Shown: piece by piece, positions 14,477-50,805 of the stretch
Numbering within the stretch: position 1 is the stretch's first letter
Layout of the letters: each line of letters starts with the position of its first letter
The notes under the pieces: generated by a model
What the model saw: the letters and a program-made list of their open reading frames with translations, nothing else
Told to the model about the DNA's origin: nothing
Databases searched by the model: none
Origin: Escherichia phage vB_EcoM_ESCO25
Strand: one strand, 5' to 3'
Sequence record: OM386656.1
Length of the DNA: 64,000 nucleotides
Position numbers and translations under genes: made by a program

Positions 14477-14914
14477 TTAACGTCGCTTGCTACGAGATGA
14501 ACTCTTTTTACTTAAAGGGCTATTGTAAGATTTACGAGTTGTATAGCTACTATTTGTTTTAAAAGTTTGTCTCGGCTTTTCATAAGTTTTTATCTCTTGT
14601 TTAGGCTTACTATAAAAATTAGTTTTCGGTTTAGGTGTATTATAATGCTTATTAATAATCGTTCTGTTATCGTTATAATCCCCACTGCTACGATTACTAC
14701 CGCCACTCATCATATGCCCTAACAACATACCTGTAGCAAACTCACCAACACCGCTACTACTAGAACCGCCACCATTGTTGATAATAGTTGTATCTCCGTC
14801 AGATCCTTGTTGAGCGTATTGTTGAGGAGGTTGTTGGTATTGTGCAGGATTTGTCTCATCCTCGCAAGCTGTTAAAAAGATACAACCAATTAAAATCAGG
14901 GCTAGTTTTTTCAT
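14477..14914 (-). CDS. lipoprotein, low-complexity Q/G/S-rich
   Basis: Start trimmed to MKKLALILIGCIFLTAC (lipobox LTAC); the remainder is Gln/Gly/Ser/Lys-rich. Confidence 0.6.
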   Translation of the reverse strand: MKKLALILIGCIFLTACEDETNPAQYQQPPQQYAQQGSDGDTTIINNGGGSSSSGVGEFATGMLLGHMMSGGSNRSSGDYNDNRTIINKHYNTPKPKTNFYSKPKQEIKTYEKPRQTFKTNSSYTTRKSYNSPLSKKSSSRSKRR

Positions 14915-15101
14915 ATTTGCTTTCCTCGTTTTGGCTATTAATACATCTGTGTTTGAAATCTCCAGAGAAGCAATAAAGTTGCTCTCCATCTCGGTATAAA
15001 CTCACTTTACTGCCGTTGATTACGCTTGTCAATACAAAAATTACAACAAACAACCCTATTGCAAAACAAATATTTTCAAACACAACCAACAAGTATTTCA
15101 T
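14856..15101 (-). CDS. possible small membrane protein
   Basis: 81 aa ORF with hydrophobic N-terminus LLVVFENICFAIGLFVVIFVLTSVI; overlaps the lipoprotein start, so uncertain. Confidence 0.35.
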   Translation of the reverse strand: MKYLLVVFENICFAIGLFVVIFVLTSVINGSKVSLYRDGEQLYCFSGDFKHRCINSQNEESKYEKTSPDFNWLYLFNSLRG

Positions 15102-15448
15102 TTTAAAAATACCTCATCATCAGTTTCATTATCCCAGAAGAACAAGTCCCAACCATTCGGATCATTCCATTTAGCTGCTGGAGAAGTCCATATTTGCTCG
15201 ATATCAATATTCAAAACTTCACCGTTTCGTTTTGAAACAGCTTTAGTTAATTCCCAACGGGATACAGGCTCCACTTCCCCTGAACCACTCCCACAACAAG
15301 CTACCACATTAGGAGGCAAATTAATTGGATCTTTGGTCACGATCATAACGCTTACCCCAGGGTAAACTTTTGAAAGATAATCTAAAACGTAATCCACATC
15401 ACCAGATAAATCCCAAACAAGTTCTTGAATTTCATCAAAATTACTCAT
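15098..15448 (-). CDS. hypothetical protein
   Basis: 116 aa ORF; RBS aggagag. Confidence 0.5.
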   Translation of the reverse strand: MSNFDEIQELVWDLSGDVDYVLDYLSKVYPGVSVMIVTKDPINLPPNVVACCGSGSGEVEPVSRWELTKAVSKRNGEVLNIDIEQIWTSPAAKWNDPNGWDLFFWDNETDDEVFLK

Positions 15449-15454
15449 AAGTCT

Positions 15455-15484
15455 CTCCTATAAAATAGCCTCCCGAAGGAGGCT
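15455..15484 (-). terminator. intrinsic terminator after terC
   Basis: AGCCTCC-cgaa-GGAGGCT hairpin (15467-15484), followed on the minus strand by TATTTTATA. Confidence 0.55.
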
Positions 15485-15490
15485 CATTTA

Positions 15491-16465
15491 TTAAACAGTA
15501 GCTTCTTCTTTTTCAGGGAAGATAAAGCTTGCAATAACACCAAGAGATAATGTGCCTAGAACAATCATCAGACTTACGTTAGGGGAAATATCATGCGGGA
15601 GGAATGACCACTTGGCATGAAGTGTTTCACCGAACGGGTGATACATAAGTTTAGCACCAACAAACACCAGAACCACAGCAACAGCTTTCTCTAAGTGAAC
15701 CAGATATTTCACAGCTACACTTAACACAAAGAAAAGTGCACGTAAACCAAGAACAGCCATCAGCATTGCAGAATAAACTAGCAGAGGTTCTTGTGTCACA
15801 CCGATCACAGCCGGAACTGAATCAAAAGAGAAGACAATATCTGTAAGCTCAATAACAAACACACAAAGAAGAGCAGGAGTTGCATATTTAATACCATTCT
15901 TAATGGTGATGAACTTTTCACCATCCAGTGCATTGTGCACAGGCAGAACTTTACCTACTAAACGAACAGCCCAATGTTTAGAGTAATCAATATCCTCTTC
16001 TTTGTCACCACCTTTGATGATAGCCACGGCAGACCAAGCTACAATCAAACCGAACAACACTTGGACCGACCAATGAAGGTTAAACAAAGCGGTCCCTGCT
16101 GCAACAAAAATACCTCGGAAGACAATGGCTCCTGCAATCCCCCAAAGTAGAATCTTATGTTGGAGATGTGTGCTCTTAATTCCAAAGCTTGCAAAAATTG
16201 CCATGAACACCATTAGGTTATCTACAGAAAGACTCTTTTCCAACACATAGCCACTTAGGAAAAGCGCGGCAAACTCTTTACCATGTTCTACCCAAATGAA
16301 TGCGTAATACCCTAAAGCTAAAGCAATCCAAAAAACAGACCAAAGCAAAGCAGATTTAATTCCAATTTCTTTATTCTCTTTATGACCAAAGAAATCGATA
16401 CCAATAGACAATGCTAAAATACCAACTAAAACAACTACATCAATAATTGGGAAACCGAGTTGCAT
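15491..16465 (-). CDS. terC: TerC-family integral membrane protein
   Basis: 324 aa, multiple transmembrane helices; LSGYVLEKSLSVDNLMVFMAIF and downstream helices match the TerC/Alx signature (LSxDNxxVF). Confidence 0.8.
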   Translation of the reverse strand: MQLGFPIIDVVVLVGILALSIGIDFFGHKENKEIGIKSALLWSVFWIALALGYYAFIWVEHGKEFAALFLSGYVLEKSLSVDNLMVFMAIFASFGIKSTHLQHKILLWGIAGAIVFRGIFVAAGTALFNLHWSVQVLFGLIVAWSAVAIIKGGDKEEDIDYSKHWAVRLVGKVLPVHNALDGEKFITIKNGIKYATPALLCVFVIELTDIVFSFDSVPAVIGVTQEPLLVYSAMLMAVLGLRALFFVLSVAVKYLVHLEKAVAVVLVFVGAKLMYHPFGETLHAKWSFLPHDISPNVSLMIVLGTLSLGVIASFIFPEKEEATV

Positions 16466-16482
16466 TCTTTTCTCCTCTCTTT

Positions 16483-16541
16483 GCGGGGAACTATTCCCCG
16501 CTTCATGTGATATATCTTACTCTTTTTAAGAACTATGTCAA
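16483..16541 (-). promoter_or_regulatory. PeSL-like cassette (promoter plus 5' stem-loop) upstream of terC
   Basis: Minus strand: TTGACA (16541-16536), N16, TAAGAT (16519-16514), atatcacatgaa, hairpin GCGGGGAATAGTTCCCCGC (16501-16483), RBS gagaggag; same architecture as the plus-strand array at 38.3-48.2 kb. Confidence 0.6.
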
Positions 16542-16544
16542 CAC

Positions 16545-16766
16545 TTATTTTGTTGAATGAGAGGAAAAGATTCCTCGTAATACCGCCAAAATAAACGAAA
16601 CACAAACCACGGTCCAGAAGGTTACTGGGACAGTGATATCTGCATGACCCATAACTTCAGCAACATAGTTGTAAGCCAGCAACAGTAACCAAGCTGGAAT
16701 CAAACTAAGCATAAAAGCAATAACAAAAAAGCTTACCACTGCAACAATACCTGCAAAAACACCCAT
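16545..16766 (-). CDS. small membrane protein
   Basis: 73 aa, two or three hydrophobic helices. Confidence 0.5.
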   Translation of the reverse strand: MGVFAGIVAVVSFFVIAFMLSLIPAWLLLLAYNYVAEVMGHADITVPVTFWTVVCVSFILAVLRGIFSSHSTK

Positions 16767-16778
16767 ACTAATCTCCTC

Positions 16779-17252
16779 TTAAAGTTTATAAATAGTCACA
16801 TCGTGACCTGTTTTTACTAAAGTTTCTTCAATCATCACTTGGATGATAGCCCAATTACCTCCGGCATGTCCCGCTCCAATCATAGGTAAACCGATCTTAC
16901 ATTTTTGGTCACGGAGAAGCAAATCATTAGCCATAGCTATTAGTGCATCGTAAAGTGCATCATAGTCCAACTGACGACCTTTAGCATTGTATCCGTAACG
17001 GTATTGCCCGTATAGATTATATACCAAAGGGTCTGATTGTTCGTCTGGCACCCCTAAACTAAAAGAACCTAACTTACTTTGATCACCAGCCATTGTGTCT
17101 AAATCTGCCGCATATGCATAAGGGAATGCTCGTTTAATTTGCGGAGCAATTCCTGCTCCCATATTACACATACAATTGCAACAATGAGCAATAACAGTTA
17201 CTTCACCTGCTTTAGCGGCATCAATAAGATTACCTGTTTTCATTTTAAGCAT
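16779..17252 (-). CDS. macro domain protein (ADP-ribose binding or hydrolysing)
   Basis: Start set at MLKMK with AAGGAG RBS; VIAHCCNCMCNMGAGIAPQIKRAFP and GLPMIGAGHAGG resemble the macro-domain Gly-rich loops. Confidence 0.65.
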   Translation of the reverse strand: MLKMKTGNLIDAAKAGEVTVIAHCCNCMCNMGAGIAPQIKRAFPYAYAADLDTMAGDQSKLGSFSLGVPDEQSDPLVYNLYGQYRYGYNAKGRQLDYDALYDALIAMANDLLLRDQKCKIGLPMIGAGHAGGNWAIIQVMIEETLVKTGHDVTIYKL

Positions 17253-37158: not shown

Positions 37159-37213
37159 TATTTTAACTTTTTTCATTTTTAGAACAAAGGTGTCACTTTG
37201 TAGCACAGAAATA

Positions 37214-37249
37214 AGGCTCCTACAGCACCGTAGAGAGCCTGTTATTTTG
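37214..37249 (+). terminator. intrinsic terminator after the NADAR gene
   Basis: Nested hairpin AGGCTC-[CTAC-agcacc-GTAG]-a-GAGCCT followed by GTTATTTTG. Confidence 0.55.
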
Positions 37250-37400
37250 TCCTATACAAACCCTTGTCTTTTTCAGTTTGCATCACTAGGATTCGATCTG
37301 AGTGGGTTCCTGAAGGTTTACCAATAAGATTAAAGGTTATATCAAATTCCCACTATCTTTTATCTCAAAAATCCCTCAAATTATTTAAACTTTTTAAGAA

Positions 37401-37578
37401 TTTACAAAAGTGAAAGTTGAAAACCAAAATTTAAAGTTTAGGAAAATTATCTTAAAATATTAGATACAAAACAAAACTCAAAAGTCAAGGAAAATTTTAA
37501 AAATTTTGCGCGCCCACAGTATTTAAAGTTTTTTTGCTTTTACAAAAATGAAAGTACAAAAGCAAAATTTAAAGTTTA
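37401..37578. repeat. two ~40-bp AT-rich direct repeats (37401-37440 and 37539-37578)
   Basis: TTTACAAAAGTGAAAGTTGAAAACCAAAATTTAAAGTTTA versus TTTACAAAAATGAAAGTACAAAAGCAAAATTTAAAGTTTA, about 34/40 identical. Confidence 0.6.
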
Positions 37579-37600
37579 CAAAAATTTTTATGCAGGTGAA

Positions 37601-37707
37601 AATGAGAAGAGTTCTCATATGGAAATGCAAATGATAATGATTCGCATTTAAGTTTATAAATGAGATTGATTCTTATTTAATAAGGTAAATGACAATCATT
37701 CTCATTT
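37601..37707. promoter_or_regulatory. array of four ~20-bp AT-rich palindromes at ~29-bp spacing (operator or Fur-box-like)
   Basis: AATGAGAAgagTTCTCAT (37601), AATGATAATGATTCGCATT (37629, contains GATAATGAT), AATGAGATTGATTCTTATT (37658), AATGACAATCATTCTCATT (37687). Confidence 0.45.
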
Positions 37708-37966
37708 AGAGAATGACGCGCAGGGGCGGTGTTTGTCTCGCGCTCCCGTGTCCCCTCGCCATGTAATAAGAATAACAGATCCAGCCAGGAAAGCAAGCGA
37801 TTATTTTATCTTTACATTTCTTTACAAATATATAGCACCCAGCCTACCGGCGATCAACCTTCCAACCAGTGCCCCCTGGTATGTTAGCCCCGCCTTTACG
37901 CCGTGGGGTGGCGCTTCCTCTTCTGTATGTAAAACAGTATAAGCCCGATCCCTGGGCTTGTCAAGA

Positions 37967-38233
37967 TTATTTTTTGTTTTCTTGCCAGGATAGGACACCT
38001 AACCAAAAATACATATCGCCCCGCGCCCCTGGTGGTATCTTGCTTTCCCCGCCGCCACTGCAAGCCCATAGATAACCATTTGCGAACGTATCAAAATGAT
38101 CTATCTCTTCCACCTTATGATCGCCCAGGTTGAGAACGGTTTCAACCTTTAAGCCCGTTGCGCTTGCTACCTGGTGCACCGTGCCGCCTTGCCAGCCCAA
38201 TGAGTGCATAAGGTGTAATGTAGTATTTGTCAT
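37967..38233 (-). CDS. possible hypothetical protein in an otherwise non-coding GC-rich island
   Basis: 88 aa ORF with weak RBS (aaggg); no recognisable promoter; low confidence. Confidence 0.3.
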   Translation of the reverse strand: MTNTTLHLMHSLGWQGGTVHQVASATGLKVETVLNLGDHKVEEIDHFDTFANGYLWACSGGGESKIPPGARGDMYFWLGVLSWQENKK

Positions 38234-38419
38234 GATATCGCCCTTTCTTTGTTGTGCGCCCTGGTTGGCGCGGTAGAAAGATAATAGCCCTTTTCTTTAT
38301 ATATAGCAAGCAAAAAGAAAATAAAAAAGATTGAAAAATGGTTGACGTTAACCAGGCGGCGGCGTAGTATTCATCTTGTAGGGCGGCAATGGTGCCGCTC
38401 ACTATTTGGAGTTAAGATC

Positions 38420-47711: not shown

Positions 47712-48080
47712 ATGAGCAAATCAGCAATTAAAGCACTTGAAAAAGCACAAGAAGTGATCGCAACGTCAACCACTGGCGCAAAGGTTAATCTCGTTGGTTA
47801 TCTGACAGATGAAACTATCCGTAAAAATTGGCGTAATGCTGATTTACTGGCTTGCTTATTGATTAATAGTGTCGCTAATGCTTTCCAGTGTGAAACAGCC
47901 GAGAGCCTGGAGGAAAACTTGTTTGATAATATGGATCAAGCCATTGAAACCTATATACAATCAAACCTGGATAGCTGGAACAGTAAAACATGGCCCGACA
48001 ATTTACGCGATACAACTGATCAACTGATCCGCCTTGCCCTGATGGTTGAACGCGATAACGTTCACAACCGCACAAAGTAA
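47712..48080 (+). CDS. hypothetical protein (cassette gene)
   Basis: 122 aa ORF. Confidence 0.5.
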   Translation: MSKSAIKALEKAQEVIATSTTGAKVNLVGYLTDETIRKNWRNADLLACLLINSVANAFQCETAESLEENLFDNMDQAIETYIQSNLDSWNSKTWPDNLRDTTDQLIRLALMVERDNVHNRTK

Positions 48081-48090
48081 GATTATACAA

Positions 48091-48112
48091 GGGGCGCACT
48101 AAGCGCCCTTTA
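48091..48112 (+). terminator. stem-loop/terminator, near-copy of the 42453 element
   Basis: GGGGCGCACTAAGCGCCC followed by TTTAACG (weak T-tract). Confidence 0.45.
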
Positions 48113-48220
48113 ACGTAAAGAAATGTAAATAATGCGCTATCCCCTATTGACAGGGGATCGGCGTTATATTATATTTAACTCACTGGCAGCAAACAACGAA
48201 ACGAAACAAAGGACAACATC

Positions 48221-48640
48221 ATGAACATTAAATCAAATAATCCAGCTTACTCCTTCGATAACGCTTTTTGTCACGGTAGCGCCGCCAAAGGCTTCGAAAT
48301 CGATGGTAAATTGGTTATCGTGAACGTTGACGGGGAAGAGGTTGCAGTGTATCCGGTAAACGATGTTAAAAGCCGTTTACAATGCCGCATGGATGTTACC
48401 GCATATCAGCTTGATCCGGTCCGTGTAGTTGCCCTGGTATTAGAGGAAGAGATCAAAGCAATGCATCACAGTAATAAGTTTATTGGTGACGCGCAGGATA
48501 ATATGAACGTTTGCCGCCATAAAGTTAACGAAGCATTGAAAGAATACGGTTTTAAGGATCTGATGATCAAACGTGATGAAAAATTCCGCTTTCGTAATGA
48601 CCTGGCAAACCGGATCTACTCAATCTATGAAGCTTTATAA
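48221..48640 (+). CDS. hypothetical protein (last cassette gene)
   Basis: 139 aa ORF. Confidence 0.5.
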   Translation: MNIKSNNPAYSFDNAFCHGSAAKGFEIDGKLVIVNVDGEEVAVYPVNDVKSRLQCRMDVTAYQLDPVRVVALVLEEEIKAMHHSNKFIGDAQDNMNVCRHKVNEALKEYGFKDLMIKRDEKFRFRNDLANRIYSIYEAL

Positions 48641-48655
48641 TCAACAACAAAACAA

Positions 48656-48682
48656 GGGGCGCACCAAGCGCCCTTTCTTTTT
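48656..48682 (+). terminator. intrinsic terminator (copy 2 of the repeated terminator)
   Basis: GGGGCGCACCAAGCGCCC followed by TTTCTTTTT. Confidence 0.65.
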
Positions 48683-48888
48683 GCCCGAACAATGTTGATA
48701 GCTTTCGCCTATGAAAAACCGACACAGAACAAAACTGAATAAATCGCGGTATCGAGCTAATCAACCAGCAAACGAATAACCATACCTCCCAGGGTTACAG
48801 GCTGTTAGAGAGCTATTTAGAGCGGTTAAAATCGATCAACAACCAACAACAAACCATCAAAAACACCCTTTTACCTCCTTTCTAGTGC

Positions 48889-48906
48889 AATGATAACCAT
48901 TATCAT
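48889..48906. promoter_or_regulatory. Fur-box-like palindrome
   Basis: AATGATAACCATTATCAT, close to the Fur consensus core AATGATAATCATTATC. Confidence 0.4.
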
Positions 48907-50102
48907 CTACCCATGATTATCTATGCAATATAAGCGCATAATTATAATGTTGATAATAGTTCGCAACAACTAACCAACAAACAACATAAAACAATAAGCA
49001 AACTAATCATAATCAAAGGAATAATAGCAAGATGATTGATAACGACAAACAATCAAACCATGATGAATACTAAGCAAAATAACGATAACACGACAAAACA
49101 ACCAACTAACGAACAATAACAAACGAAACCATTAAAATAATAACTATTAGCAAAATAGTGCCTGAATGAAATCATTACAAAACGAATCATTCACAGAGTC
49201 ATCATTAGCACGCTATGCCGGACACATAGCGAGCTAATAATAAGCCAACTACACCCCAACAATCATAACCATCGGTGATGGTTATTTCTTGTTACTGCGT
49301 AGCTTGCAATAATTGCAAGCGTAATGACGCTTACACTTATTGCGCTGGCTTATTATTAGCATTATATGTAATTACCAAGATCATAACATTAGCGCAATAA
49401 CAATAATCATTGTAATAATTATGTAAGGAAATAATTAACATGGCAATAATTATGGGGGCGAAATGTTACCGCCACAGGCGGGAATGTTGAGCAAGTTCTC
49501 TTAAACGTAAATAAAATCAGAAAATTCTTGATTTATTTTAGTTTTTATGTTAATAAACGTTTAAATAATAATCATTCTCATATAAATAATAGTCCGTCTG
49601 TCATGAGCGGCATTAGTTGACATTGTTCCGTCATATGATGAAGTTGCCAAGCCATTGATAAATAAGTGTTTGTGTGATTTATAATCAGGTGGCCCACCTT
49701 GTCGCTATGTTGGCATGAGCCTTGCATAAGTCATTGAATACGAATGATAATTATTCTCATTCGCATGATATTTGGGAATTGTCGCTGCGTGGACCTGACG
49801 GCCCGAAAATTCGCGTTAAGCACTTCTTACGTATGCGCCATGATTTTTGCCATATCATATTGATTCTATTAGATATTCTTGCCATGATTGCCATGAAACA
49901 GGGTGTCCCGAAATAATCTCTCCCCGTAGATATTTTGGGTTACTTTTTATACAAGAGCGGGGTGTCAAAAATAATCGGTATATATGGGATAATTGATAGG
50001 AATCCCCTATGATAATTCGATTGTAATTCCCTAAGATTGATCGTATGATGTTGGTGATTGATGATTGCCATGAAAGATGGCTAACGATGAGAGGAGATTG
50101 TC

Positions 50103-50447
50103 ATGCAAGAGAGTAAAAATGTTCCGTTGAGTAGTTTACGTCTAATGAAGTTTTACAAAGCTTGGCTTGCTGGTGAGGTAGAAGGTCACACAACGAGTGG
50201 TTTGTGCATATGTTTGATTAAGTATGTAGAGGGAACATACCCTGATGAACTGTTACCTCGTCTACAACAAGAGATGAAATCACAGTTTATTGGTGCAGGA
50301 TTGGATTACAATTTCCCGTTTAATGAAGGTGGTTATGAGGAATACACCTTTGAACATAAAAAACATATTTGCCATAAAAACAAACATCGTATACAATGGG
50401 TGCTAGATAGAATTCAAGATTATGAAGGAGAGAAAGATGACAAATAG
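50103..50447 (+). CDS. paralog family A member 1 (GLC...WV-D-R small protein)
   Basis: 114 aa; FYKAWL...TSGLCICL...GLDYNFPF...RIQWVLDR; RBS gagaggag. Confidence 0.55.
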   Translation: MQESKNVPLSSLRLMKFYKAWLAGEVEGHTTSGLCICLIKYVEGTYPDELLPRLQQEMKSQFIGAGLDYNFPFNEGGYEEYTFEHKKHICHKNKHRIQWVLDRIQDYEGEKDDK

Positions 50448-50805
50448 TATTCCGTTGAGCAGTGCAACATTGCTTCGCTTCTATAAAGCATGGATTGCCA
50501 ACTATCCTGCAATGAATCGCACAACGAGTGGCTTATGTGGTTGTCTGGTAGATTATGTAGATGATTTTGTTGGTGATACACCTAGAGAAGAAGATAGAAA
50601 ATGGCGTGATCATTTGTTGGACCGTTTGAAATATGAAATGAGGAAACAATTTACATGTGCAGGGCTGGACTACAATCTTCCGTTCAATGTGGATTGCATG
50701 GATTACCTTTCAGAGTGTATAAACTTGGCGTGTCATACCAACACGTTACGTCTTCAGTGGGTGAAAGATCGGATTGAAGATGCAAATAATGCTTGCATTG
50801 AATAA
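50437..50805 (+). CDS. paralog family A member 2
   Basis: Start trimmed to MTNSIPLSS; FYKAWI...TSGLCGCL...GLDYNLPF...RLQWVKDR. Confidence 0.55.
   Translation: MTNSIPLSSATLLRFYKAWIANYPAMNRTTSGLCGCLVDYVDDFVGDTPREEDRKWRDHLLDRLKYEMRKQFTCAGLDYNLPFNVDCMDYLSECINLACHTNTLRLQWVKDRIEDANNACIE

What the first reader, a model, noticed from the sequence alone, without database searches (positions are those of the whole stretch)
48700..49450. Strand-asymmetric A/C-rich non-coding tract of about 750 bp
The plus strand is dominated by A and C (many CAACAA, AACAA, GATAAC, ATAAC motifs) with very little G, and has no credible ORF on either strand. Such strong strand-composition bias is unusual for coding phage DNA and may mark a replication or transcription boundary, a structured non-coding RNA, or a protein-binding scaffold.
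Basis: seen in the sequence. Interest (0 to 1): 0.5.

Follow-up and report, generated by a model that had tools for sequence, protein, structure and literature searches.

The report
Non-coding DNA beside phage genome end
The A/C-rich stretch is real and non-coding: it is the last unique DNA before the 329-bp terminal repeat at the physical end of a phAPEC8-like coliphage genome, and it lies beside a previously undescribed conserved DNA/RNA fold and the conserved end-cutting motif.

Summary
Observation confirmed. A+C content here is the maximum of the whole 64 kb at every window size, at 4-5 SD. The core has 9% G against 22.5% in other intergenic DNA. No conserved ORF exists.

The window is a Phapecoctavirus. 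The tract lies in a 1.46-kb gene-free gap (48641-50102). The gap runs from the last gene of a + strand operon, with its terminator, to the direct terminal repeat (DTR, 49490-49818). I mapped the DTR from two independently determined relatives.

The 750 bp are heterogeneous:
- unique conserved motifs (48695-48835);
- a Fur-box-like operator/promoter block (48886-48965);
- the truly skewed, unstructured core (48830-48880 and 48960-49260);
- a 165-nt multi-helix element (49199-49364) with strong covariation, pairing better on the minus strand;
- TTAGCR repeats, a GC hairpin and the cut motif TGTTG^AGCA.

The core's sequence diverges freely, yet its G depletion and negative GC skew persist in all 10 lineages examined. 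The skew turns positive across the repeat.

Best reading (about 0.4): a cis-acting genome-end module. Its bottom strand is the sense or exposed strand, through leftward transcription or strand opening beside the repeat. It would serve end replication or packaging, as at the T7 right end.

The region is not in Rfam, and the few papers I read do not describe its anatomy.

The parts
48654..48676 (.). Intrinsic terminator that closes the upstream + strand operon (139-aa gene, 48221-48640). It is also terminator-like on the - strand in this phage (48673..48657, tail CTTGTTTTGT).
   Evidence: 9-bp stem, 6 GC pairs, tail CTTTTTGCCC. Invariant GGGCGC...GCGCCCTTTCTTTTT in 6 and 13 lineages. Annotated as a terminator in phAPEC8 and Schickermooser.
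48695..48835 (.). Block B: conserved motifs that occur only once in the 64-kb window (TGATAGC..CCTAT; AAAAGTGAATAAATCGCGnTAT; TTAGAGAGCnTTTTAGAnCGCTTAAAAT). No consensus RNA fold.
   Evidence: Cross-genus alignments. Each motif occurs once in 64 kb. RNAalifold finds only the terminator.
48830..48880 (+). First G-free island (A 43, C 35, G 2, T 20%); CAACAACCAACAACAAACC repeats.
48886..48965 (.). Block C, an operator/promoter block. It holds the Fur-box-like palindrome AATGATAACCATTATCAT (48889-48906, 15/19 to the E. coli Fur consensus) and -10-like CATAAT (48937-48942) and TATAAT (48943-48948) on the + strand. A second box-like TGATAAT(A/C) follows at about +1. The promoter scan reports a - strand promoter-like site TTATCA-18-TATATT (48956..48927); by eye there is a further TTGCAT-N18-GATAAT at 48928..48899.
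   Evidence: (family D1). GCATAA/G and the boxes are conserved in all lineages. The homologous boxes in muut and BME3 match the Fur consensus 16-17/19, counted by eye on the sequences.
48960..49195 (+). Main A/C-rich, G-poor core. It is non-coding and poorly conserved in sequence and length. G depletion and negative GC skew are conserved in position in 10 lineages.
   Evidence: GC skew -0.23 to -0.55 in all lineages. Large indels and low identity. Unstructured as + RNA. No helical periodicity.
49199..49364 (-). Conserved multi-helix element. H1 is 49211-17 x 49225-31. The long-range helix P0 is 49233-47 x 49346-60. H5 is 49250-54 x 49297-301. H2 is 49265-73 x 49277-85. H3 is 49302-09 x 49313-20. 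H4 is about 49321-26 x 49338-43. An alternative long hairpin is 49306-22 x 49327-43. The element pairs better on the - strand.
   Evidence: RNAalifold on 19 sequences, + strand -43.5 and - strand -54.9 kcal/mol. 45 pairs: 98.2% of cells paired on - against 92.9% on +; 12 pairs with two-sided changes; 0/500 shuffles; slid controls 20-52%. H4 per lineage. DNA fold z = -10.0 (-) and -8.3 (+). No Rfam match.
49147..49394 (+). TTAGCR repeats in direct (+) orientation at 49147, 49205, 49356 and 49389. They resemble the end-cutting motif and are candidate terminase or initiator recognition sites.
   Evidence: ATTAGC occurs 6 times in the gap against about 1.1 expected. Three to five + oriented copies cluster from -180 to +260 of P0 in most lineages, with few on the - strand.
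49399..49446 (-). Sigma-70-like promoter on the - strand, TTGCCA-17-CATAAT (49446..49418). A weaker copy of the palindromic box (49399-49416) lies over its predicted start. It would transcribe leftward through the structured element and the tract.
   Evidence: 10/12 match; D1 copy. Its position is not conserved outside Phapecoctavirus.
49452..49489 (+). Terminus-proximal signal: GGGGGCGAAA motif, GC hairpin CCGCC-ACA-GGCGG (49469-49481), then TGTTG (49485-49489). The end is cut after 49489.
   Evidence: Every lineage has a GC-rich hairpin of lineage-specific sequence followed by TGTTGAGC, and some have two or three copies. The ends of the Schickermooser and BME3 records fall exactly here.
49490..49818 (.). 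Direct terminal repeat (one copy in this collapsed or permuted window). Both boundaries carry GTTR^AGCA(n)TTCT. It contains promoter-like sites reading toward the early genes (TTGATT-17-TAATAA 49527-49555; TTGCAT-18-GATAAT 49722-49751) and two palindromic boxes (49564-81, 49743-60).
   Evidence: The exact 329-bp suffix=prefix of the Schickermooser record maps to 49490-49818. A 328-bp repeat is reported in PMC6563267. The BME3 342-bp DTR (PhageTerm, PMC12210895) has homologous boundaries. Many records start or end at about 49810-49818. The promoter-like sites inside the repeat were read by eye and were not returned by the promoter scan.

Best explanation
The tract is non-coding, once-per-genome DNA belonging to the genome-end control module of Stephanstirmvirinae phages. 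It is the sequence-unconstrained spacer between an operator/promoter block and a conserved multi-hairpin element. That element sits 130-290 bp left of the terminal repeat and its cut site.

Its composition says that the bottom (-) strand is the sense or exposed strand here. On the bottom strand G exceeds C, as on the sense strand of the other transcription units in this window. The adjacent element folds best on that same strand.

I therefore propose the following mechanism. The region is opened or transcribed leftward, starting beside the repeat (in this phage from TTGCCA-17-CATAAT at 49446..49418). This yields a C-poor, G/U-rich, untranslated transcript or displaced strand whose first ~165 nt fold into the P0/H1-H5 structure. 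C-poverty would make such an RNA a poor Rho substrate. The same composition makes any rightward read-through RNA (C-rich, G-poor, unstructured) an ideal Rho substrate. The tract would then act as a directional valve that shields the end-processing site.

By analogy with the T7 right end (promoter phiOR and a hairpin-forming inverted repeat just left of the terminal repeat), the opened, AT-rich tract plus the bottom-strand fold would serve replication priming or terminal-repeat duplication and cutting at the concatemer junction.

Shown: location, non-coding status, conserved skew, covarying structure with strand bias, cut-site motif. Inferred: transcription direction, Rho logic, role in replication or packaging.
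For: 1. Position. The tract lies between the last gene with its terminator and the DTR. The DTR is documented for this subfamily (PMC6563267, PMC12210895, PMC12695924). The same architecture occurs in Vequintavirus LL12, with the 139-aa gene homologue placed.

2. Composition. G depletion and negative GC skew are conserved in 10 lineages although the sequence diverges with large indels. The skew turns positive in the DTR and beyond. Other + transcribed spacers have G>C. Sense strands have G>C in both the - strand half and the + strand half of the window.

3. Structure. The element has 12 covarying pairs and 0/500 shuffles reach the observed score. It pairs better on the - strand, 98.2% against 92.9%. 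G.U cells number 47 on - against 2 on +, which I count by hand as roughly 10 independent events against 1-2. RNAalifold gives -54.9 against -43.5 kcal/mol and the DNA fold -47.4 against -40.7.

4. Transcription signals. A sigma-70-like - strand promoter (10/12) with an operator copy lies at its start, and a - strand terminator-like site lies at 48673..48657.

5. Unstructured core. The tract has almost no structure as + RNA, which fits Rho's known preference for C-rich, G-poor, unstructured RNA (established knowledge).

6. Recognition signals. TTAGCR repeats, a GC hairpin and the cut motif lie next to the structure.

7. T7 parallel. phiOR lies 549 bp left of the TR, and an imperfect inverted repeat lies about 190 bp left of it. 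The functional role of the T7 hairpin is from my memory of Chung, Nardone and Hinkle 1990.
Against: - There are no expression data. No paper in the library holds both 'Phapecoctavirus' and 'RNA-seq', and the four that hold 'Stephanstirmvirinae' and 'transcriptom' were judged from their titles only.
- The - strand promoter right of the structure is not positionally conserved outside Phapecoctavirus.
- The - strand terminator tail looks weak in other genera (read by eye).
- A conserved + strand -10-like CATAAT with a Fur-like box at about +1 lies at the left edge of the tract and would drive the opposite direction.
- Helix H4 carries a U.G on the + strand in this phage's clade.
- Two of the hairpins have 3-nt loops, which may fit a DNA hairpin better than an RNA one (my own judgement, not tested).
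- A/T skew is strong only in Phapecoctavirus and the Klebsiella clade.
- The skew could be a mutational footprint without function.
Confidence: 0.4

Rival explanations
1. Rho-dependent insulator for rightward transcription. The C-rich, G-poor, unstructured, untranslated + strand RNA made by read-through of the 48654-76 terminator is a long rut region. Rho loads on it and stops RNA polymerase at the hairpins, before it can enter the packaging site, the terminal repeat and (in concatemers) the early genes of the next genome.
For: In the core C is 20% and G 9%, and the C/G ratio is 2-4 in all lineages. The + RNA MFE is -11.6 kcal/mol for 236 nt. There is no ORF. The tract lies directly downstream of an operon end and upstream of strong hairpins.
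Against: A strong, invariant intrinsic terminator already precedes it. A conserved zone of 300-450 nt is much longer than a rut site needs to be. This reading does not explain the - strand bias of the adjacent structure or the unique conserved blocks. It is compatible with the best explanation, which includes it as the 'valve' idea.
Confidence: 0.2
2. Rightward, operator-controlled non-coding transcript, like T7 phiOR. A promoter in block C (-10 CATAAT/TATAAT 48937-48948), repressed by host Fur or a phage regulator, makes a G-free leader RNA. This RNA runs through the structured element into the terminal repeat. It would activate replication or junction processing, or act as a free ncRNA.
For: The -10-like GCATAA(T/G) is conserved in all lineages, with a Fur-like box at about +1 and another upstream. 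The distance from promoter to DTR is 547 bp, against 549 bp for T7 phiOR to the TR. The element still pairs at 92.9% on the + strand.
Against: The -35 is poor (by-eye reading; the + strand scan reports no promoter there). Wobble asymmetry and folding energy favour the - strand. The skew sign is opposite to that of + transcribed spacers. No terminator is conserved after the element. There is no Rfam family. Such an RNA would be highly Rho-sensitive.
Confidence: 0.15
3. Mutational footprint without function of its own. The tract is an unconstrained spacer whose bottom strand is often single-stranded, for example as a displaced strand or a late-primed lagging template near the end. Cytosine (and adenine) deamination has removed C (and A) from that strand, as in vertebrate mitochondrial DNA.
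For: Sequence and length are free to vary while only composition is kept. The pattern (- strand poor in C, and in Phapecoctavirus also poor in A) matches the deamination signature known from the mtDNA H strand (established knowledge). The skew is confined to the parts that lack conserved motifs.
Against: It needs an exceptional, local single-stranded state that has not been demonstrated. That state would itself be the biologically interesting feature. The tract has been retained at 200-540 bp in every lineage rather than deleted.
Confidence: 0.15
4. Unrecognised protein-coding gene, for example small hydrophobic peptides on the G/T-rich bottom strand, or a gene broken by a sequencing error.
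For: Automatic annotation of some records places tiny - strand CDSs here (ETEC-TG). The - strand has ORFs of 36-45 aa.
Against: I saw no ORF conserved across genera; similarities appeared in several frames and on both strands, as expected for conserved DNA (positions not tabulated). Large indels that are not multiples of three occur. The records of phAPEC8, Schickermooser and phiWec188 annotate no CDS here. More than 40 independent assemblies share the same gap.
Confidence: 0.02

Closest known systems
Right-end region of phage T7 DNA (promoter phiOR, hairpin-forming inverted repeat about 190 bp left of the terminal repeat, concatemer-junction processing signals)
   Same: Both have a short direct terminal repeat (160 bp against 329 bp). 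In both, a non-coding or low-coding stretch lies left of it, with a promoter about 550 bp upstream and intrastrand pairing potential 130-290 bp upstream of the repeat. The related rV5 encodes a T7-type DNA polymerase A and a gp4-like primase-helicase (PMC3606486); I did not check this phage's own replication genes.
   Different: T7 has a single imperfect inverted repeat, not a 15-bp long-range helix enclosing several hairpins. T7 uses its own RNA polymerase promoter. T7 has a gene (19.5) where this phage has a G-free non-coding tract. No function has been tested here. The role of the T7 hairpin is recalled from the literature and was not re-read.
T7 SRL array (nt about 160-350, just inside the left terminal repeat; ACCTAAAG repeats)
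   Same: A strand-asymmetric, A/C-rich, G-poor non-coding stretch directly flanks a terminal repeat (T7: A 38-44, C 22-40, G 8-16%).
   Different: T7's lies on the other side of the repeat, with the opposite polarity relative to the end. It is built of a clear repeated heptamer. No consistent repeat array is found here or in the relatives. The function of SRL is itself unknown, as far as I know.
Rho utilisation (rut) regions of Rho-dependent terminators
   Same: C>G, unstructured, untranslated RNA downstream of an operon.
   Different: It is several times longer than known rut sites, it follows an efficient-looking intrinsic terminator, and Rho dependence is untested.
R-loop or transcription-activated origins (ColE1 RNA II, T4 ori(uvsY)/ori(34), T7 primary origin) and single-strand initiation signals (G4-type ssi, plasmid sso)
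   Same: The features in common are a promoter, an easily melted AT-rich zone with G>C on the non-template strand, a strand-specific folded element and a local origin-type GC-skew switch.
   Different: No initiation has been mapped, there is no sequence similarity to these elements, and the skew switch is only local.
The 'non-coding' box of coliphage rV5 and the terminal-repeat region of LL12 (Vequintavirinae)
   Same: Both lie downstream of the 93%-identical 139-aa gene and contain the terminal repeat and the same palindromic box.
   Different: The DNA is not homologous. C>G is only mild, and the structured element, TTAGCR repeats and TGTTGAGC motif are absent.

Membership tests
DTR-flanking genome-end cis region (T7-type packaging / concatemer-processing region) | Immediately adjacent to the direct terminal repeat at the physical genome end | tested here: met
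   The 329-bp DTR of Schickermooser maps to 49490-49818. The BME3 342-bp DTR has homologous boundaries. Literature.
DTR-flanking genome-end cis region (T7-type packaging / concatemer-processing region) | Intrastrand pairing (hairpin) potential within about 200-300 bp of the repeat | tested here: met
   Covarying helices at 49211-49360. z = -8 to -10.
DTR-flanking genome-end cis region (T7-type packaging / concatemer-processing region) | Required in cis for end formation or packaging | not testable with these tools
   Needs a plasmid-transduction or deletion assay.
DTR-flanking genome-end cis region (T7-type packaging / concatemer-processing region) | Conserved cleavage-site sequence at the repeat boundaries | tested here: met
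   GTTR^AGCA at both boundaries. TGTTGAGC is conserved in all lineages.
Rho-dependent terminator (rut region) | C-rich, G-poor, unstructured, untranslated RNA of at least about 80 nt | tested here: met
   (for the + strand RNA).
Rho-dependent terminator (rut region) | Termination depends on Rho | not testable with these tools
   Needs bicyclomycin, a rho mutant or in vitro transcription.
Known non-coding RNA family (Rfam) | Match to a curated covariance model | tested here: not met
   Only four chance-level hits, E 0.9-8, far below the gathering scores.
Non-coding RNA gene in general | Conserved promoter and terminator delimiting the structured part | tested here: inconclusive
   A - strand promoter and terminator are present in this phage but are not conserved across genera. 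The + strand -10-like element is conserved, but its -35 is weak and there is no terminator.
Non-coding RNA gene in general | Compensatory base changes supporting a fold | tested here: met
   Met for 49199-49364 only. Not met for the A/C-rich core or block B. A single-stranded DNA fold would give the same signal.
Replication origin | AT-rich unwinding zone, repeated binding motifs and a local skew switch | tested here: inconclusive
   The core is 71% A+T (76-77% in muut and inny) against 61% for the genome. TTAGCR repeats. The skew changes from - to + across the terminus. No initiator is known and no initiation has been mapped.
T7 SRL/SRR-type repeat arrays | Array of a short conserved repeat unit | tested here: not met
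   Only weak, lineage-specific repeats. The composition is alike.
Protein-coding gene | ORF conserved in frame among relatives | tested here: not met
Fur-regulated promoter (boxes flanking the tract) | 19-bp Fur box match overlapping promoter elements | tested here: met
   14-15/19 at 48886, 49396, 49561, 49740 and 49746. Seven of the 19 sites scoring at least 14/19 in 64 kb lie in the 1.46-kb gap. 16-17/19 in muut and BME3, counted by eye. Binding by Fur is not testable here.

The most novel reading that the evidence does not exclude
The G-free tract and the bottom-strand multi-helix element together form a previously unknown end-replication device of large DTR myoviruses. Under this reading, leftward transcription or strand displacement beside the repeat exposes the bottom strand. 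Its 15-bp long-range helix then folds back, giving a structured cap. The cap primes or licenses duplication of the terminal repeat, or genome replication from the end. The whole device would be under the control of Fur-like operators, which would couple end processing of a virulent phage to host iron status.
Probability: 0.12. Interest if true: 0.75.

Novelty: new variant of a known kind. Interest (0 to 1): 0.45.

Why it matters
phAPEC8-, phi92- and rV5-like phages are common therapy candidates. Their genomes are usually deposited with arbitrary start points, and automatic annotation sometimes places spurious small ORFs in this gap.

This analysis gives three practical things:
- the gap holds the true genome end;
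- the conserved cut motif (TGTTG^AGCA / GTTA^AGCA) gives a rule for orienting and annotating these genomes;
- the tiny CDSs called in the gap should be removed.

It also defines testable cis elements for a group whose replication origin and packaging signal I found described nowhere. These are a covarying 165-nt fold absent from Rfam, a strand-specific G-free tract conserved only in composition, direct TTAGCR repeats, and Fur-box-like operators. If the strand-exposure model holds, it would be a new example of how short terminal repeats are duplicated or how replication starts near a linear end.

Tried and rejected
- Rfam scan of 48000-50500 at E<=10: only chance snoRNA-like hits.
- Conserved ORFs on either strand: none.
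- Tandem or iteron-like repeat arrays as the basis of the tract: weak in the window, absent in L019 and L008, and only a lineage-specific 16-mer array in muut.
- Intrinsic curvature or protein wrapping: no 10-11-bp periodicity of AA, AAA or C above background.
- Hfq (ARN)n or CrcZ-like sponge idea: dropped. By eye only very short ARN runs exist, and the A-richness is not conserved outside Phapecoctavirus and the Klebsiella clade.
- RNA structure in block B: none beyond the terminator.
- Block B motifs as general promoter motifs: each occurs once in 64 kb.
- A positionally conserved sigma-70 promoter right of the structured element: not found.
- The structured element in bacterial genomes: five chance matches only. 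In IMG/VR and metagenomes it occurs only in relatives of this phage group.
- Homology of the rV5 2.6-kb gap: none except the palindromic box.
- TGTTGAGC elsewhere in the window: seven other copies, whose contexts look like ordinary coding sequence.
- Function of flanking proteins: Pfam gave nothing, and the PHROG families are all 'unknown'.
- tRNAs in 36-51 kb: none.
- Literature on transcription of these phages or on this gap: nothing usable. One Fur-box search was badly framed and uninformative.
Full report
**Identity and setting**

The 1.55 kb around the finding matches 75 phage records at 80-99% identity. Almost all are Phapecoctavirus (phAPEC8-like myoviruses of about 150 kb, subfamily Stephanstirmvirinae).

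The finding lies in a gene-free gap, window 48641-50102.
- On its left is the last gene of a + strand run of small genes (139 aa, 48221-48640), followed by a strong intrinsic terminator at 48654-48676.
- On its right the next + strand genes start at 50103.
- The phAPEC8, Schickermooser and phiWec188 records annotate no CDS in the gap. An automatically annotated record fills it with tiny CDSs.

- Window 48700-49450 has A 41.9, C 20.9, G 13.3, T 23.8%. The whole window has 31.0, 19.5, 19.7, 29.8%.
- The highest A+C of the whole 64 kb falls here at window sizes 100, 200, 400 and 750, at 4-5 SD above the mean. The core 48960-49140 is A 56, C 20, G 9, T 15.
- Other + strand spacers of this phage have G 22.5% and C 17.6%, so the bias is not a general property of intergenic DNA.
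- No ORF exceeds 45 aa. Six-frame translations of nine lineages show matches in several frames and on both strands, as expected for conserved DNA blocks. I saw no single-frame cross-genus match in the G-poor core, though I did not tabulate the positions.

The 750 bp are not uniform. The skewed parts are 48830-48880 and 48960-49260. An unskewed conserved block separates them, and a structured block follows.

**The tract abuts the physical genome end**

Several GenBank records of relatives begin or end inside the gap at the same point.
- The Schickermooser record has an exact 329-bp suffix=prefix that maps to window 49490-49818. Its authors reported a 328-bp terminal repeat (PMC6563267).
- Phage BME3 belongs to another genus, Justusliebigvirus, and its 342-bp DTR was called with PhageTerm (PMC12210895). 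Its record ends fall at the homologous positions, 342 bp apart.
- Both boundaries carry the same motif: TGTTG^AGCAAGTTCTC on the left and CGTTA^AGCACTTCTTA on the right.
- A third paper states that Stephanstirmvirinae genomes end in direct terminal repeats.
- In the Vequintavirus LL12 the 459-bp repeat also lies in a non-coding region. It is about 1.1 kb downstream of the homologue of the same 139-aa gene.

So the A/C-rich tract is the last unique DNA before the right-hand copy of the terminal repeat.

**Comparative anatomy**

I compared the gap in 10-19 sequences. They came from Phapecoctavirus, a divergent phiWec188-type lineage, Justusliebigvirus, two Klebsiella lineages and five metagenomic lineages. 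The order of elements is conserved:

1. The terminator.
2. Block B, 48695-48835. It holds conserved motifs that each occur only once in the 64-kb window. It has no RNA fold.
3. A short G-free island.
4. Block C, 48886-48965. It holds palindromic boxes that resemble the E. coli Fur box, and a conserved -10-like GCATAA(T/G).
5. The G-poor core. Its sequence and length diverge freely, with large indels and 200-540 bp in different lineages.
6. A strongly conserved structured element, 49199-49364.
7. TTAGCR repeats in direct orientation.
8. A G-rich motif, then a GC hairpin whose sequence differs between lineages although a hairpin is always there, then TGTTG^AGC. Some lineages carry two or three copies of the hairpin and cut motif.
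9. The terminal repeat, with promoter-like sites reading toward the early genes. I read these sites by eye; the promoter scan did not report them.

**What is conserved in the tract is its composition**

G is 2-12% per 50 nt in the equivalent stretch of every lineage.

| Region | GC skew across all 10 lineages |
|---|---|
| Tract | -0.23 to -0.55 |
| Structured and recognition part | about 0 |
| Terminal repeat | +0.09 to +0.26 |
| Beyond the repeat | +0.05 to +0.31 |

The additional depletion of T, which makes the tract 'A/C-rich', is confined to Phapecoctavirus and the Klebsiella lineages.

As + strand RNA the core is essentially structure-free: -11.6 kcal/mol for 236 nt, no better than shuffles. 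The - strand gives -30.9 kcal/mol, also no better than shuffles. There is no helical periodicity and no consistent repeat array.

**The structured element**

RNAalifold and explicit pair counting on 19 sequences support these helices:

| Helix | Window coordinates |
|---|---|
| H1 | 49211-17 x 49225-31 |
| P0 (15-bp long-range helix) | 49233-47 x 49346-60 |
| H5 | 49250-54 x 49297-301 |
| H2 | 49265-73 x 49277-85 |
| H3 | 49302-09 x 49313-20 |
| H4 | about 49321-26 x 49338-43 |

P0 encloses H5, H2, H3 and H4.

- Twelve pairs change on both sides while staying paired, in 60 cells. No shuffle out of 500 reaches this. Sliding the partners drops pairing to 20-52%.
- A long-range helix with compensatory changes argues for a single-stranded nucleic acid rather than a duplex protein site.
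- The same 45 pairs are 98.2% paired on the - strand and 92.9% on the + strand. There are 47 G.U cells on - against 2 on +.
- Counting lineage-level events by hand, about ten favour the - strand: H2 in five or six lineages, H5 in two states, and H3 once. One or two favour the + strand: H4 in this phage's clade.
- The - strand also folds more stably, as RNA (-54.9 against -43.5 kcal/mol consensus) and as DNA (-47.4 against -40.7; z = -10.0 and -8.3).
- An alternative long hairpin (49306-22 x 49327-43) competes with H3 and H4 in this phage.
- Nothing in Rfam resembles the element. Outside this phage group the core motif gives only chance matches.

**Interpretation**

Two independent features point to the bottom strand as the functional single strand.
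- The skew. G exceeds C on the bottom strand, as on the sense strand of the other transcription units here and opposite to + transcribed spacers.
- The wobble asymmetry of the adjacent fold.

In this phage a good sigma-70-like promoter on the - strand sits just right of the fold. It is TTGCCA-17-CATAAT at 49446..49418, a 10/12 match, and a copy of the palindromic box lies over its start. The operon terminator also reads as a terminator on the - strand.

A C-poor RNA is a poor Rho substrate. The complementary rightward RNA is the ideal one, being C-rich, G-poor and unstructured. This rests on established knowledge of Rho. The composition can therefore be read as a directional valve. It would let leftward transcription or opening proceed and stop rightward read-through before the end-processing site.

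The layout recalls the T7 right end. There the promoter phiOR lies 549 bp left of the repeat, and an inverted repeat about 190 bp left of it forms a hairpin end during concatemer processing. The mechanistic part of that comparison is from my memory of Chung, Nardone and Hinkle 1990.

I therefore favour, at about 0.4, a cis-acting genome-end module. In it, opening of the AT-rich, skewed tract and folding of the bottom strand serve replication priming or duplication and cutting of the terminal repeat.

Only the following are shown: the location, non-coding status, conserved skew, covarying structure, strand bias and cut motif. The transcription direction, the Rho logic and the role in replication or packaging are inferred.

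**Rivals**

- *Rho-dependent insulator for + strand read-through (0.2).* It fits the composition but not the strand bias of the fold. It is compatible with the valve idea.
- *Rightward operator-controlled transcript from block C (0.15).* The -10-like element and a Fur-like box at about +1 are conserved in all lineages. However, the -35 is poor, the skew has the wrong sign, and the fold favours the other strand.
- *Mutational footprint (0.15).* Deamination of a frequently single-stranded bottom strand, as in mitochondrial DNA. It explains why only composition is kept, but it presupposes the same strand exposure.
- *Coding (0.02).* Not supported.

Weaknesses of the favoured model:
- There are no expression data. 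No paper in the library holds both 'Phapecoctavirus' and 'RNA-seq', and the four that hold 'Stephanstirmvirinae' and 'transcriptom' were judged from their titles only.
- The - strand promoter is not positionally conserved outside Phapecoctavirus.
- The - strand terminator tail looks weak in other genera (read by eye).
- Several hairpins have 3-nt loops, which may suit DNA better than RNA (my own judgement).

**Known or new**

The existence of an ORF-free box in rV5 and the position of the terminal repeat in a non-coding region are in the literature. I found no description of the following:
- the G-free tract;
- the covarying fold;
- the cut-site motif shared by both boundaries and by several genera;
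- the TTAGCR repeats;
- the Fur-like boxes.

The search was limited to the library and terms, and I read only a few of the papers returned. I rate this a new variant of a known kind (a phage genome-end cis region), of moderate interest (0.45). Its practical value lies in genome orientation and annotation, and in designing experiments on replication and packaging of these therapy-relevant phages.

Noticed in passing
window 37160-38340 (boxes at 37601, 37630, 37659, 37688): This is a second gene-free, AT-rich region (GC about 0.32). It holds four tandem copies of the same palindromic box (AATGAnAAnnAnTCTCAT, Fur-box-like), spaced exactly 29 bp apart. It also holds TTTAAAGTTT-type repeats, followed by a GC-rich stretch. 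Together with the terminus gap it is the only place in 64 kb with near-perfect copies of the box. It could be a regulatory hub or an origin.
   Followed up: partly
window 48886-48906, 49396-49416, 49561-49581, 49740-49764; L003 and L042 homologues: The palindromic boxes match the E. coli Fur consensus GATAATGATAATCATTATC at 14-15/19 here. In Justusliebigvirus (muut block C, BME3 terminal repeat) they match at 16-17/19, counted by eye. Seven of the 19 sites scoring at least 14/19 in the window lie in the 1.46-kb gap. Host Fur control of promoters at the ends of a virulent phage genome would be unusual. Alternatively a phage regulator binds these boxes.
   Followed up: partly
window 48221-48640: The 139-aa protein of unknown function (phrog_12277, no Pfam) is 90-93% identical in rV5-like Vequintavirinae, which otherwise share little DNA with this phage. 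In Phapecoctavirus (three records) and in rV5, and by coordinates in LL12, it is the last gene before the non-coding terminus region. Justusliebigvirus and the Klebsiella lineages carry a different last gene there. This suggests either exchange of the gene between subfamilies or a functional link with the genome end.
   Followed up: partly
L003 3588-3626 (phage muut), also L009, L014, L016, L025: The cut-site motif with its preceding hairpin is duplicated or triplicated in several lineages (TATTTGTTGAGCC x3.2 in muut). This raises the question of which copy is cut.
   Followed up: no
L041/L042 (BME3, PP239276): The deposited record ends agree with a 342-bp repeat. However, the annotated 'DTR-L' feature is offset by 73 bp, contains N, and is followed by sequence from inside the structured element. 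This suggests an assembly or annotation problem at the ends.
   Followed up: partly
window 50103-50447 and 50422-50805: The first two genes after the terminal repeat are overlapping paralogues (both phrog_2510, shared LSS..L.RFYKAW motif) of unknown function.
   Followed up: no
window about 14600-16800: This region holds the next most A/C-rich + strand stretches of the window (up to 0.75 per 100 nt). It lies in the half of the window that I infer from GC skew to be transcribed on the - strand, so a sense strand there would be unusually G/T-rich. I did not examine the ORFs.
   Followed up: no
(records MG065650 and other 'Campylobacter phage' entries, OR584014 'Pseudomonas phage PsgM04F', OP562383 'Acinetobacter phage ABPW7'): Records labelled with non-enterobacterial hosts match this E. 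coli phage at 94-97%: the Campylobacter and Acinetobacter records in this DNA region, and the Pseudomonas record in the 139-aa protein. The host labels are doubtful.
   Followed up: no
window 49306-49343: The segment TTGCAAGCGT can pair either upstream (H3) or downstream (long hairpin 49306-22 x 49327-43). In muut and KP2025 an inserted hairpin at the same spot duplicates one pairing partner. This may be a conformational switch.
   Followed up: partly
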